Shown here in pieces: positions 13,081 to 13,170 of a stretch of 64,000 bases of DNA (positions within the stretch are counted from its first letter, which is position 1; every line of letters starts with the position of its first letter). The DNA lies in NCBI GenBank assembly GCA_963768655.1, contig CAVYIM010000003.1:192001-256000 (forward strand), in the 5' to 3' direction. The notes beneath the pieces were generated by a model that was not told the origin of the DNA, did not search any database, and was given only the letters and a program-made list of their open reading frames with translations. Origin of the DNA: an uncultured Chloroflexia bacterium. GTDB taxonomy: Bacteria > Chloroflexota > Limnocylindria > Limnocylindrales > CSP1-4. A program made the translations under genes and the position numbers.

Positions 13081-13170
13081 CTAGAACGGCCTGTAACTGG
13101 CGCCGCCGGCGGCGGCGGCCATGAGGCCTGCTCCGAGCACTAGGAGGAGGGATTCGATTCGACGACGCAT
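13081..13170 (-). CDS. Small signal-peptide-like precursor MRRRIESLLLVLGAGLMAAAAGGASYRPF (29 aa)
   Basis: Manual translation from ATG 13170 to TAG 13081 with GGTGA upstream. Basic n-region, hydrophobic h-region and short polar/aromatic tail; first ORF after a promoter. Confidence 0.75.
   Translation of the reverse strand: MRRRIESLLLVLGAGLMAAAAGGASYRPF

What the first reader, a model, noticed from the sequence alone, without database searches (positions are those of the whole stretch)
13081..13170. Unannotated micro-ORF that is almost all signal peptide plus a short cargo (GG-ASYRPF)
Seen: MRRRIES-LLLVLGAGLMAAAA-GGASYRPF-stop, below the ORF-track size cutoff, with GGTGA upstream. It has a basic n-region, a hydrophobic core and a small-residue cleavage region, then only a 5-7 residue tail ending in an aromatic residue. 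Inference: a protein this short makes most sense as a precursor that releases a short secreted peptide (SYRPF, ASYRPF or GASYRPF).
Basis: partly seen in the sequence, partly recalled or inferred. Interest (0 to 1): 0.85.

Follow-up and report, generated by a model that had tools for sequence, protein, structure and literature searches.

The report
Riboswitch-controlled 29-residue membrane micropeptide gene
The tiny 29-codon reading frame is a real, widely conserved gene that sits between a c-di-GMP-sensing RNA switch and a membrane-bound c-di-GMP-degrading enzyme, and it most likely makes a small membrane peptide that works with that enzyme's sensor.

Summary
The ORF exists, on the minus strand (13170..13081), and reads exactly as reported. 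It is not a chance frame. An orthologous ORF precedes the same downstream gene in 71 of 76 related Chloroflexota (Limnocylindria) loci that have upstream DNA. It is 29 codons long in 66 of them, and its invariant residues are written with synonymous and cross-family codons.

- A c-di-GMP-II riboswitch lies upstream. It is diverged in this genus but above Rfam's cut-off in sister genera.
- A second conserved 10-codon ORF follows the riboswitch.
- The micro-ORF comes next, then a MASE9-type membrane HD-GYP phosphodiesterase, then a DUF5317-MFS transporter.

Small ORFs of the same design also precede MASE9 genes elsewhere in the phylum, without the riboswitch.

Best reading (about 0.5): an uncleaved N-in/C-out single-pass micropeptide that partners the MASE9 sensor. 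The family has no Pfam or NCBIfam model and is called "hypothetical protein" where it is called at all.

The parts
13452..16898 (-). 1148-aa regulator gene (AAA ATPase, TPR, Trans_reg_C, BTAD). It is the conserved upstream neighbour and ends 36 nt before the promoter-like site.
   Evidence: Pfam. Its C-terminal part lies upstream of the micro-ORF in 15 of 15 loci. In one search it was found in 61 of the 80 loci; 19 rows have no match, several of them short loci.
13388..13416 (-). Promoter-like site, TTGACC, 17 nt, TAACGT.
   Evidence: Read directly. It lies inside the DNA block conserved in the genus (query positions 17-246). The scan tool did not call it in the window, but it called TTGACC-18-TACAGT at the matching place in L037. 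Inferred, not shown.
13259..13343 (-). c-di-GMP-II riboswitch aptamer, diverged copy.
   Evidence: RF01786, 30.8 bits against a gathering score of 53.5, E 1e-4, model positions 1-84 of 84. The element at the same position scores 56-67 bits in 11 loci of other genera and 53-61 bits in 4 loci of family f4. With the Rfam structure laid on 21 sequences, 84% of cells pair against 25-42% when the partner is slid; 8 pairs change on both sides; the pseudoknot is invariant.
13245..13248 (-). Shine-Dalgarno GGAG of the first small ORF (uORF0), 9 nt before its GTG.
13176..13235 (-). uORF0: 19 codons in the window (VSPEANNRPWLPARNNRPW), an in-frame 9-codon duplication of a unit that is 10 codons long in most relatives. 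It ends in TGG TGA, 5 nt before the micro-ORF ATG.
   Evidence: 75 loci: 55 have 10 codons, 3 have 9, 7 are longer, 4 have no start by my rule, 6 have no motif. Pro3 is written CCC/CCG/CCA/CCT. Position 8 is Lys or Arg, written with both CGN and AGR codons.
13081..13170 (-). The micro-ORF of the finding: 29 codons, MRRRIESLLLVLGAGLMAAAAGGASYRPF.
13019..13080 (-). Spacer between the micro-ORF and the HD-GYP gene. It holds conserved motifs (GTAC next to the stop, CCCATAG, TAGATTG), local hairpins, and the AGGAG ribosome-binding site of the HD-GYP gene (13023..13019).
   Evidence: DNA block at query positions 344-433 is conserved in the genus. Single-sequence folds. In the most distant subgroup the spacer holds a 14-bp terminator-like hairpin in 14 of 14 sequences, with 4 compensatory pairs. 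No consensus fold was found for the middle subgroup.
11621..13018 (-). Membrane HD-GYP c-di-GMP phosphodiesterase: an N-terminal polytopic MASE9-type domain (about residues 1-235) plus HD_5. The likelier start is ATG 13012, 6 nt after AGGAG.
   Evidence: Pfam HD_5, 2e-37. The HD and GYP motifs are read in the translation. MASE9 (PF20972) hits orthologues above its cut-off (G083, G066, G073, G046, G067, G049, G053, G059) but not the window's own copy.
9779..11617 (-). DUF5317 plus MFS (MFS_1/MFS_3) transporter gene. Its start overlaps the HD-GYP stop codon by 1 nt.
   Evidence: Pfam. Found downstream of the HD-GYP gene in 77 of 80 loci. Fused to it as MASE9-HD_5-MFS_3 in two 844-850-aa proteins outside the class.

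Best explanation
The 29-codon ORF is a real, translated gene. It is the second cistron of a leader that runs: promoter, c-di-GMP-II riboswitch, 10-codon uORF0 (19 codons here), micro-ORF, MASE9-HD-GYP phosphodiesterase, DUF5317-MFS transporter.

Proposed working:
1. When c-di-GMP is high the riboswitch lets the leader be transcribed or translated. In sister genera this is anti-termination; in this genus the platform is unresolved.
2. Ribosomes load at the strong ribosome-binding site of uORF0, terminate at its Trp-stop, and restart 5 nt further on at the micro-ORF.
3. The product inserts into the membrane with its Arg/Lys-rich N-terminus inside. It has one 19-residue span rich in small residues (Ala19, Ala21, Gly22, Gly23, Ala24). 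A short outer tail is anchored by Arg/Lys27 and Phe/Trp29.
4. The peptide stays uncleaved and binds the polytopic MASE9 sensor domain of the co-transcribed phosphodiesterase as a small accessory or regulatory subunit. It thereby tunes c-di-GMP breakdown.

Shown: the ORF's conservation, the coding signature, the synteny, the identity of the riboswitch by orthology, and the link with MASE9 genes.
Inferred: translation, topology, absence of cleavage, binding to MASE9, and the restart relay.
For: Coding signature:
- 19 of 20 genus loci and 71 of 76 wider loci are intact, 66 of them with exactly 29 codons, while the flanking spacers vary by tens of bases.
- Column entropy at codon positions 1/2/3 is 0.83/0.59/1.38.
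- Ser25 is written AGT/AGC/TCC, Arg27 AGG/AGA/CGG/CGA, Pro28 CCG/CCC/CCA, Arg4 with four codons, and the stop TAG/TGA.
- dN/dS over 79 close pairs is 0.74 (codons 2-22) and 0.36 (codons 23-29), against 1.01 and 1.22 in the two other frames.
- In family f4 the ORF has its own GGAG-type site 6-7 nt before the ATG.

Context:
- RF01786 lies upstream in 20 of 20 loci scanned, 11 above the cut-off, and in 4 of 4 f4 loci at 53.4-61.4 bits.
- An HD-GYP orthologue starts about 60 nt downstream in 15 of 15 loci.

Link to the sensor domain rather than to the riboswitch:
- The ORF precedes the orthologue in 22 of 22 further loci of families f1 and f4. It is absent before 2 paralogues of the same membrane domain.
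- It is present, at 25 aa, in 2 of 2 f3 loci without a riboswitch.
- Outside the class, a strict detector finds a small ORF of the same design upstream of 7 of 22 MASE9/HD-GYP genes. The antisense control gives 0 of 22 and the in-gene control 0 of 22.

Membrane design:
- N-terminal net charge averages +2.4, and the uncharged stretch is 19 residues in 63 of 85 members.
- The tail keeps only a basic and an aromatic residue across lineages.

Literature:
- MASE9 was proposed to bind its ligand within the membrane (bioRxiv 10.1101/2021.11.05.467447, passages read).

Weak support:
- Contigs of RNA libraries from three studies hold 13224..13314 (13224..13309 in X2) exactly. Contigs of a relative cover 13062..13104 and run on into letters identical to the micro-ORF of L010.
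Against: - No direct evidence of translation, membrane insertion or binding.
- Conservation along the hydrophobic part shows no helical periodicity (permutation p 0.40-0.51). A packing face is therefore not supported.
- Conservation simply rises towards the C-terminus, as it would for a signal peptide followed by a mature part.
- Ala19-x-Ala21 and Gly22-x-Ala24 fit the small-residue rule of signal peptidase I.
- dN/dS of 0.74 over most of the ORF is only mild constraint.
- The window's own aptamer is below Rfam's cut-off and has several mispairs. Its expression platform is not resolved.
- uORF0 ends in a similar basic, small/Pro, aromatic, stop pattern. A membrane role does not explain this.
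- Two paralogues of the membrane domain do without the peptide.
- 15 of 22 out-of-class loci fail the strict detector.
Confidence: 0.5

Rival explanations
1. The 29-mer is a pre-peptide. It inserts N-in/C-out, and signal peptidase I cuts after Ala21 or Ala24. A 5-8-residue peptide (SYRPF to GGASYRPF) is released outside the cell as a signal, perhaps sensed by the MASE9 domain. Cell density would then feed into c-di-GMP turnover.
For: - Conserved n/h/c design: +2.4 net charge at the N-terminus, a hydrophobic core of about 11 residues, and Ala19 (83 of 85), Ala21 (78 of 85) and Ala24 (85 of 85) at signal-peptidase-like positions.
- The variable hydrophobic part (dN/dS 0.74) against the constrained tail (0.36) is the pattern of a signal peptide plus a mature part.
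- No helical face of conservation.
- The tail differs between genera (SYRPF, SLRGF, SLKGF, SFKGF, GVRPL...), as ligand-receptor pairs do.
- A lipoprotein of the same genome has an equally short hydrophobic core in its signal peptide (L002).
Against: - The precursor is shorter than the exported peptide precursors I know of, which have pro-regions of 15 residues or more (recalled, not from a call).
- The tail is almost invariant within the genus: SYRPF in 26 of 71 loci, with no pherotype-like diversification.
- In out-of-class relatives only 3-4 residues follow the small-residue motif. The shared features are a basic and an aromatic residue, as at membrane interfaces.
- The uncharged stretch of 19 residues suffices for a stable span.
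- No peptide importer, protease or RRNPP-type receptor was found or looked for in the cluster.
Confidence: 0.2
2. The ORF matters mainly in cis. It is a leader ORF whose translation (relayed from uORF0) opens RNA structure, counteracts termination in the spacer, or stalls at its basic, Pro/Gly, aromatic, stop ending. This sets how much HD-GYP is made. The peptide itself has no job.
For: - It lies in a riboswitch leader directly after another conserved mini-ORF that has the strong ribosome-binding site. The gap is 5 nt in 26 loci and 0-33 nt overall.
- In non-g1 genera the micro-ORF has no ribosome-binding site of its own.
- Both ORFs end alike, and the endings co-vary by clade: mean identity over the last five residues is 1.6 against 1.04 when pairs are shuffled, with 0 of 2000 shuffles as high. 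Relatedness inflates this figure.
- The spacer after the stop is conserved and structured, with a terminator-like hairpin in 14 of 14 sequences of the distant subgroup.
- Precedent: riboswitch-controlled translated leader ORFs with termination-reinitiation in M. tuberculosis (PMC11260477, abstract and outline seen).
Against: - A cis role does not explain the basic N-terminus, the 19-residue uncharged span or the fixed length, which are kept from family to phylum level.
- The ORF goes with the MASE9 gene where there is no riboswitch.
- Its stop lies 46-88 nt from the membrane-domain match of the next gene, about 60 nt before its start. That is too far for direct coupling.
- In f4 it has its own ribosome-binding site.
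- A cis role and a peptide function are not exclusive.
Confidence: 0.1
3. It is a real small membrane protein, but its partner is not the MASE9 domain. Candidates are the DUF5317-MFS transporter, a homo-oligomer of the peptide itself, or the TPR part of the neighbouring regulator.
For: - The transporter gene follows the HD-GYP gene in 77 of 80 loci. It is fused to it outside the class, so all three travel together.
- The regulator is also a conserved neighbour.
- Small-residue motifs can drive self-association (established knowledge, not from a call).
Against: - The peptide gene always stands immediately before the MASE9-HD-GYP gene.
- At least one out-of-class locus with such an ORF (L170/L176) has a 497-aa HD_5 protein with no MFS domain in that polypeptide.
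Confidence: 0.12
4. It is a chance open frame in G+C-rich non-coding leader RNA, kept open by RNA-level constraints only.
For: - High G+C makes open frames common; 68 ORFs of at least 20 aa overlap 5.5 kb here.
- The last codons and the bases after the stop are conserved as DNA.
Against: - Start and stop are kept 29 codons apart in 66 of 71 intact loci despite 45-80% peptide identity.
- Synonymous and cross-family codon changes occur at invariant residues.
- The in-frame dN/dS is below that of both other frames.
- The same design appears upstream of distant MASE9 genes without DNA similarity.
Confidence: 0.03

Closest known systems
CD1980.2 family of Clostridioides difficile: small membrane-associated proteins encoded downstream of c-di-GMP riboswitches (PMC13724677, Nat Commun 2026; abstract and sections 7 and 9 read)
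   Same: A previously unannotated small ORF directly downstream of a c-di-GMP riboswitch. The product is hydrophobic and membrane-associated. Each family is restricted to one lineage and has no recognisable domain.
   Different: The C. difficile family has class I riboswitches that switch OFF with c-di-GMP. Its proteins are 58 aa, modelled as four helices with a C-terminal hydrophobic helix. They are stand-alone multicopy genes and act on sporulation. Here the riboswitch is class II, with a terminator arrangement in sister genera that suggests an ON switch. The peptide is 29 aa with a single span, single-copy (1 match in the own genome), and lies in an operon with a phosphodiesterase. The paper reports no homologues outside C. 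difficile.
Small single-pass membrane proteins that modulate larger membrane sensors or transporters, such as MgrB with PhoQ, AcrZ with AcrB, KdpF with KdpABC (recalled from general knowledge, no call)
   Same: Under 50 aa, N-in single span, and encoded next to or with the polytopic partner. Function would come from contacts within the membrane.
   Different: No sequence relation. None of these is known for an HD-GYP or MASE9 protein, or under a riboswitch with an upstream relay ORF. Binding is not shown here.
Exported signalling pro-peptides of Firmicutes, Phr type (recalled from general knowledge, no call)
   Same: A basic N-terminus, a hydrophobic core, an Ala-x-Ala-like site and a conserved C-terminal pentapeptide. 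A TPR-containing regulator is encoded nearby.
   Different: Phr precursors are about 40 aa or more, with a pro-region. They pair with Rap/RRNPP receptors and need re-import. Here the peptide is 29 aa, the neighbour is a STAND-type ATPase-TPR-BTAD regulator, and the tail does not diversify within the genus.
Riboswitch-controlled translated leader ORFs with termination-reinitiation, M. tuberculosis ppe2 and metE (PMC11260477; abstract and outline seen)
   Same: Short translated ORFs lie between a riboswitch and the main gene in a high-G+C bacterium. The stop-to-start distance is short (uORF0 to micro-ORF, 5 nt).
   Different: Here there are two successive small ORFs. Both have conserved peptide sequences, and the second has the design of a membrane protein.
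MASE9 membrane-associated sensor domain of HD-GYP proteins (bioRxiv 10.1101/2021.11.05.467447; passages of the MASE9 section read)
   Same: The downstream protein's N-terminal domain belongs here by orthology. It also has two hydrophobic segments too short to span the membrane (residues about 186-220), as that paper describes.
   Different: In the passages I read, the paper names no partner or ligand and mentions neither a riboswitch nor MFS (0 occurrences of each).

Membership tests
Sec-type signal peptide cleaved by signal peptidase I | Positively charged n-region | tested here: met
   Net charge of residues 1-8 averages +2.4 and is at least +1 in 85 family members.
Sec-type signal peptide cleaved by signal peptidase I | Hydrophobic h-region of about 7-15 residues followed by a c-region with small residues at -3 and -1 | tested here: met
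   Residues 8-18 are hydrophobic. Ala19 in 83 of 85, Ala21 in 78 of 85, Gly22 in 79 of 85, Ala24 in 85 of 85. The same residues also fit the outer end of a 19-residue span.
Sec-type signal peptide cleaved by signal peptidase I | A translocated mature part, with cleavage actually taking place | not testable with these tools
   No signal-peptide predictor and no experiment were available. Only 5-8 residues would remain, and 3-4 in distant relatives.
Phr/RRNPP-type signalling pro-peptide | Gene paired with an RRNPP receptor (HTH plus TPR; Rap, NprR, PlcR, Rgg, PrgX) | tested here: not met
   The neighbour has AAA, TPR_19, Trans_reg_C and BTAD domains, not an RRNPP architecture. The partner gene that always follows is an HD-GYP.
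Phr/RRNPP-type signalling pro-peptide | Precursor with a signal peptide plus a pro-region from which the C-terminal peptide is cut | tested here: not met
   29 aa in 66 of 71 loci. No pro-region.
c-di-GMP-II riboswitch (Rfam RF01786), for the element upstream | Score at or above the gathering score of 53.5 bits | tested here: not met
   The window scores 30.8 bits. The orthologous elements score 56.4-66.6 bits in 11 loci of other genera and 53.4-61.4 bits in 4 f4 loci.
c-di-GMP-II riboswitch (Rfam RF01786), for the element upstream | P1-P2-P3 helices and the loop-to-3' pseudoknot kept with covariation | tested here: met
   84% of 500 cells pair, against 25-42% when slid. 8 of 24 pairs change on both sides. 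The 4 pseudoknot pairs are invariant in 21 of 21 sequences. The window's own copy has mispairs in P1, P2 and P3.
c-di-GMP-II riboswitch (Rfam RF01786), for the element upstream | Binds c-di-GMP and switches expression | not testable with these tools
   Needs in-line probing or a reporter assay.
CD1980.2 small-protein family of C. difficile | 58-aa protein, four predicted helices with a C-terminal hydrophobic helix, downstream of a class I riboswitch | tested here: not met
   29 aa with one hydrophobic span, downstream of a class II riboswitch. Family features are taken from PMC13724677, sections 7 and 9.
Small single-pass accessory subunits of membrane sensors (a functional class, not a homology family) | Under 50 aa, one span, encoded with the partner | tested here: met
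Small single-pass accessory subunits of membrane sensors (a functional class, not a homology family) | Physical and functional interaction with the partner | not testable with these tools
MASE9 (PF20972), for the N-terminal domain of the downstream HD-GYP | Match to the Pfam model above 24.3 bits | tested here: inconclusive
   The window's own protein gives no match (G000 has 0 matches). Orthologues at the same gene position match at 28.8-40.1 bits: G083 and G066 in family f1, and G073, G046, G067, G049, G053 and G059 in f4. The profile built with the window's sequence hits those same places.
Termination-reinitiation leader ORF | Stop of the upstream ORF within a few bases of the next start | tested here: inconclusive
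   Met for uORF0 to micro-ORF: a 5-nt gap here, and 0-33 nt across loci. Not met for micro-ORF to HD-GYP: 62-68 nt here.

The most novel reading that the evidence does not exclude
A riboswitch-gated peptide signal. High c-di-GMP opens the class II riboswitch. The 29-mer is made, inserted and clipped, and its 5-8-residue C-terminal peptide acts from outside on the MASE9 sensor of the co-expressed phosphodiesterase. Cell density would then set how fast c-di-GMP is destroyed. The 10-residue uORF0 peptide ends in the same basic, small, aromatic signature. It would be an intracellular ligand or mimic for the same receptor, or for the neighbouring TPR regulator.
Probability: 0.1. Interest if true: 0.9.

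Novelty: new variant of a known kind. Interest (0 to 1): 0.68.

Why it matters
What MASE9 and most other membrane-embedded sensor domains of c-di-GMP enzymes sense is unknown. A dedicated 29-residue membrane peptide that travels with MASE9-HD-GYP genes through a phylum offers a concrete, testable candidate for a partner or intramembrane ligand.

The locus would be only the second case of small membrane proteins under c-di-GMP riboswitch control. It would be the first with a class II switch, in Chloroflexota, and wired into a likely feedback loop with the enzyme that destroys the ligand.

The locus also shows an unusual leader, with a riboswitch followed by two successive conserved micro-ORFs. 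And it shows how much coding sequence below 30 codons is missed or left unnamed in genomes of uncultured bacteria.

Tried and rejected
With the 42-aa in-frame ORF listed by the ORF listing it found no candidate of 23-74 aa. The word index missed relatives that the exhaustive HMM search later found.

4. Structure prediction accepted no job on three tries, each made after the stated wait. There is therefore no model, no topology and no fold search of the membrane domain. My hand count of 6-7 spans leaves the orientation of the N-terminus open.

5. The Atlas did not hold the 32-aa f4 orthologue. With a stored relative (P0019) it returned only unnamed clusters of 31-33 aa, which added nothing.

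6. Pfam and NCBIfam give no family for the peptide. One NCBIfam hit (GVDTG_CTERM, 17.7 bits against a cut-off of 29) covers the hydrophobic stretch, and I discarded it.

7. Helical periodicity of conservation is absent.

8. The consensus fold of the spacer in the middle subgroup gave 0 pairs. One of its 12 rows (L035) was given in the wrong orientation, which was my error. Coupling by a stem that starts at the stop codon therefore rests only on single-sequence folds of some loci, and I do not claim it.

9. The expression platform in the window's genus is unresolved. A hairpin GCUCC...GGAGC covers the uORF0 ribosome-binding site, but I could not show competition with P1.

10. RNA runs gave only contigs, so there are no transcript ends, no strand and no expression levels.
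- 13116..13174 (the micro-ORF 5' part) and most of the HD-GYP gene have no cover in X1-X3. This proves nothing.
- The runs were small-share holders (0.05-0.06).

11. Hits of the peptide HMM outside family f1 mostly lie inside open frames of 200-1000 aa, and I treated them as false. The true f4 and f3 relatives were found later through the downstream gene.

12. A Tat signal, a lipobox and a double-glycine leader were considered from the sequence and dropped. There is no twin-arginine consensus outside this genus, no Cys, and the leader is hydrophobic.

13. Supplementary files of the papers were not opened. Figure S5 of the MASE9 preprint and the supplement of PMC13724677 may bear on the domain limits and on the paralogue sequences.
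Full report
**What is there.**

The reported frame lies on the minus strand: ATG 13170..13168, stop TAG 13083..13081. It translates to MRRRIESLLLVLGAGLMAAAAGGASYRPF. The ORF listing shows it only as the tail of a 42-aa GTG-started frame.

On the same strand its neighbours are as follows (Pfam):
- Upstream, a 1148-aa regulator with AAA, TPR, Trans_reg_C and BTAD domains (16898..13452).
- 62 nt downstream, a 465-aa protein with a polytopic N-terminal half and an HD_5 (HD-GYP) domain (13018..11621). HD and GYP motifs are visible in the translation.
- Next, with its start overlapping the HD-GYP stop codon by 1 nt, a DUF5317-MFS transporter gene (11617..9779).

**Is it a gene?**

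Genus-level evidence:
- The 433-nt intergenic DNA finds relatives in 20 of 24 genomes of the same genus.
- DNA conservation falls in two blocks, before and after the first two thirds of the ORF. The ORF's 5' part diverges as DNA.
- Yet in 20 of 20 genus loci (the window's own included) the frame is recognisable. In 19 it is intact, with ATG or GTG exactly 29 codons before the stop.
- The exception, L021, is frameshifted. It comes from a 4-contig assembly of 68% completeness, which I take as a sign of indel errors (inference).
- Column entropy at codon positions 1/2/3 is 0.83/0.59/1.38.
- Invariant residues are written with different codons: Arg4 CGA/CGC/CGT/CGG, Ser25 AGT/AGC/TCC, Arg27 AGG/AGA/CGG/CGA, Pro28 CCG/CCC/CCA, stop TAG/TGA.

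Wider evidence:
- The downstream protein finds 80 loci in species-representative genomes. All are MAGs titled Chloroflexi/Chloroflexota, Candidatus Limnocylindria or Limnocylindrales (some titled Chloroflexia or Anaerolineaceae), from fen, peat, soil and groundwater.
- 4 of these loci have no upstream DNA. 71 of the other 76 carry an intact ORF: 66 of 29 aa, 4 of 28, 1 of 32; ATG 62, GTG 9.
- 5 are irregular: L093 frameshift, L131 stop lost, and L112, L124 and L128 without a canonical start.
- Over 79 close pairs dN/dS is 0.74 for codons 2-22 and 0.36 for codons 23-29. The other two frames of the same bases give 1.01 and 1.22.
- An exhaustive profile search of 1.84 billion representatives finds 103 proteins at E up to 0.001. 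One, a 2786-aa protein, I take as spurious. About half are called as exactly 29 aa and the rest are N-terminally over-extended calls ending in the same 29 residues.
- Those looked up are unnamed or 'hypothetical protein', and come from JGI, ENA and Logan only.
- Pfam and NCBIfam have no model.

I put the chance that this is a real coding gene at about 0.9.

**The family.**

From 85 distinct 29-mers, the positions are:
- Met1, Lys/Arg2, Arg4 (72 of 85), Ile/Leu/Val5, Arg7 (64 of 85).
- A variable hydrophobic stretch, with Leu12.
- Ala19 (83), Leu20, Ala21 (78), Gly22 (79), Gly23 (83), Ala24 (85), Ser/Thr25.
- A hydrophobic residue at 26, Arg/Lys27, Gly/Pro28, Phe/Trp29.

The tail is SYRPF in this genus and SLRGF, SLKGF, SFKGF or GVRPL elsewhere. 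Family f4 has a 32-aa form ending in GGASFKGW, with its own GGAG-type site 6-7 nt before the ATG. Family f3 has a 25-aa form ending in GGGAGVSGI.

- 13343..13259 matches the c-di-GMP-II riboswitch over the full model, but at 30.8 bits against a gathering score of 53.5.
- The element at the same place scores 56.4-66.6 bits in 11 loci of other genera of the family and 27-37 bits in 9 loci of this genus. That is 20 of 20 loci with a match.
- It scores 53.4-61.4 bits in 4 of 4 f4 loci.
- With the Rfam structure laid on 21 sequences, 84% of cells pair against 25-42% when the partner is slid. 8 pairs change on both sides, and the pseudoknot is invariant.
- In the other genera a terminator-like hairpin with a U-tract overlaps the 3' end of the aptamer. 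This suggests that ligand binding prevents termination, so the switch would be ON. That is inferred, not shown.
- In the window's genus no such terminator is seen, and the platform is unresolved.

- Between aptamer and micro-ORF lies uORF0, preceded by a good ribosome-binding site.
- Across 75 loci: 55 have 10 codons, 3 have 9, 7 are longer, 4 have no start by my rule, 6 have no motif.
- The consensus is Val/Met, x, Pro, Glu/Asn, x, x, x, Lys/Arg, x, Trp/Phe, stop. Pro3 uses four codons, and position 8 uses AAG, CGN and AGR.
- In the window it is 13235..13176, 19 codons, because a 27-nt unit is duplicated in frame. Other genus members have 3-4 copies.
- The micro-ORF starts 5 nt later here. 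Across loci the gap is 0-33 nt.
- In the non-g1 genera of family f1 the micro-ORF has no ribosome-binding site of its own. A restart relay from uORF0 is therefore likely (inferred). A precedent exists in M. tuberculosis (PMC11260477, abstract seen).
- Both ORFs end in basic, small/Pro, aromatic, stop, and the endings co-vary by clade. Relatedness inflates that test. I have no explanation for it.

**The partner gene.**

The micro-ORF goes with the downstream gene rather than with the riboswitch:
- It precedes the HD-GYP orthologue in 15 of 15 loci and in 22 of 22 further loci. It is missing before two paralogues of the same membrane domain, one of them in the window's own genome.
- Family f2, with genomes of about 1.1 Mb, lacks the membrane domain in 0 of 4 genomes searched.
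- The Pfam model MASE9 hits the orthologues in f1 and f4 above its cut-off. It does not hit the window's own, more diverged copy.
- Outside the class the homologues have no c-di-GMP-II match. Two examined are single proteins of 844-850 aa in which HD_5 is fused to MFS_3; one of them (L174) also matches MASE9. A third is a 497-aa HD_5 protein.
- This fusion ties the phosphodiesterase to the transporter that is a separate neighbouring gene here.
- Upstream of such genes I again find small ORFs with a basic start (often MKW), about 17 hydrophobic residues, a small-residue motif, and a tail of 3-9 residues with Lys/Arg and Trp.
- A strict detector finds them in 7 of 22 loci, against 0 of 22 on the antisense strand and 0 of 22 inside the genes. 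By eye there are several more.

The MASE9 preprint proposes that this domain binds its ligand within the membrane, and it names no ligand (passages read).

**How it most likely works.**

I commit, at about 0.5, to an uncleaved N-in/C-out single-pass micropeptide. Its C-terminal Arg/Lys and Phe/Trp anchor it at the outer interface, and it acts as a small subunit of the MASE9 sensor of the HD-GYP enzyme. In Limnocylindria, production is gated by c-di-GMP through the riboswitch and relayed through uORF0.

Points for this over cleavage:
- The uncharged span is 19 residues in 63 of 85 members.
- Across lineages the tail keeps only a basic and an aromatic residue, and it shrinks to 3-4 residues.
- There is no diversification within the genus.

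Points against:
- Conservation shows no helical face.
- The Ala-x-Ala-like positions are conserved.
- Constraint on the hydrophobic part is mild.
- There is no direct evidence of translation, topology or binding.

A purely cis-acting leader role has about 0.1, another membrane partner about 0.12, and chance about 0.03.

**Expression.**
- Contigs of RNA libraries from three peat studies contain 13224..13314 (13224..13309 in X2) without a mismatch.
- Contigs of a relative cover 13062..13104. They continue into letters identical to the micro-ORF of L010.
- These are contigs. They show presence in RNA libraries, not strand, ends or level, and DNA carry-over cannot be excluded.

**Comparison and novelty.**

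The closest published case is the CD1980.2 family of C. difficile (PMC13724677). It differs in several ways:
- Its proteins are 58 aa.
- Its riboswitches are class I OFF switches.
- Its genes stand alone in several copies.
- It acts on sporulation.

In kind, the peptide resembles the small single-pass modulators of membrane sensors. None of these, to my knowledge, is described for an HD-GYP or MASE9 protein:
- A search for 'small membrane protein', 'c-di-GMP' and 'phosphodiesterase' listed 10 of 11 papers, none on such a case by title or abstract.
- 'MASE9' gave 2 papers.
- 'DUF5317' gave none.

I rate it a new variant of a known kind.

**Limits.**

All genomes are uncultured MAGs. The complex and structure predictors were not available.

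Noticed in passing
window 13176..13235 (minus); same place in L054-L133: A second conserved mini-ORF (uORF0) lies between the riboswitch and the micro-ORF. It is 10 codons in 55 of 75 loci, with the consensus Val/Met-x-Pro-Glu/Asn-x-x-x-Lys/Arg-x-Trp/Phe-stop and a strong ribosome-binding site. Its Trp-stop sits 0-33 nt before the micro-ORF start. Its last residues resemble those of the micro-ORF and co-vary with them by clade.
   Followed up: partly
window 13176..13215 (minus); L005, L007, L008, L009, L027, L055, L057, L077: Tandem 27-nt repeats (2 copies in the window, 3-4 in relatives) are in-frame 9-codon duplications of the uORF0 coding unit. They give peptides such as (x-Pro-Glu-x-x-x-Arg/Lys-Pro-Trp)n.
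   Followed up: partly
L110-L133 subgroup, about 30 nt after the micro-ORF stop (e.g. L113 1328..1358): A 14-bp G+C-rich hairpin followed by a U-rich tail stands between the micro-ORF and the HD-GYP gene in 14 of 14 sequences of the most distant subgroup, with 4 compensatory pairs. It looks like an intrinsic terminator or attenuator, so the micro-ORF may also be made from a short transcript.
   Followed up: partly
window 13019..13080 (minus) and the same spacer in relatives: Short sequence motifs are conserved in the spacer across subgroups: AGTAC at or near the micro-ORF stop, CCCAT(T)A, and TAGA(G/T)T. I found no consensus fold or function for them.
   Followed up: partly
L001 (G000:C4:318475-318561, minus) and L002 (G000:C3:684355-684439, plus): Two more sub-threshold c-di-GMP-II-like elements (32.8 and 31.2 bits) occur in the same genome. 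They are alike and differ from the window's copy. One directly precedes a small soluble protein of about 105 aa. The other precedes a lipoprotein with repeated YWTD-like units. Neither has a micro-ORF.
   Followed up: partly
L174 396..2948 and L175 883..3417 (other Chloroflexota classes): Single polypeptides of 844-850 aa fuse the HD-GYP domain to an MFS_3 transporter; L174 also matches MASE9 (27.7 bits), and L175's N-terminus matches the window-based membrane-domain profile. In the window the same parts are two adjacent genes. This fusion argues that c-di-GMP hydrolysis and transport are functionally coupled.
   Followed up: partly
L164 (G000:C8:21014-21703, minus): The window's genome holds a paralogue of the MASE9-like membrane domain at the start of a 792-aa open frame (E 7e-37). 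No micro-ORF lies upstream of it. Its output domains were not examined.
   Followed up: no
L170 (G392:C28): Two identical tandem copies of a 31-aa micro-ORF (ending AAGADSRWA) stand upstream of a 497-aa HD_5 protein in another Chloroflexota family.
   Followed up: no
window 13224..13314: Short contigs from RNA libraries of three peat studies match this stretch exactly (13224..13309 in X2), all beginning at 13224. It covers the 3' two thirds of the aptamer and the start of uORF0. They may reflect a stable leader fragment, but contigs cannot show ends or levels.
   Followed up: no
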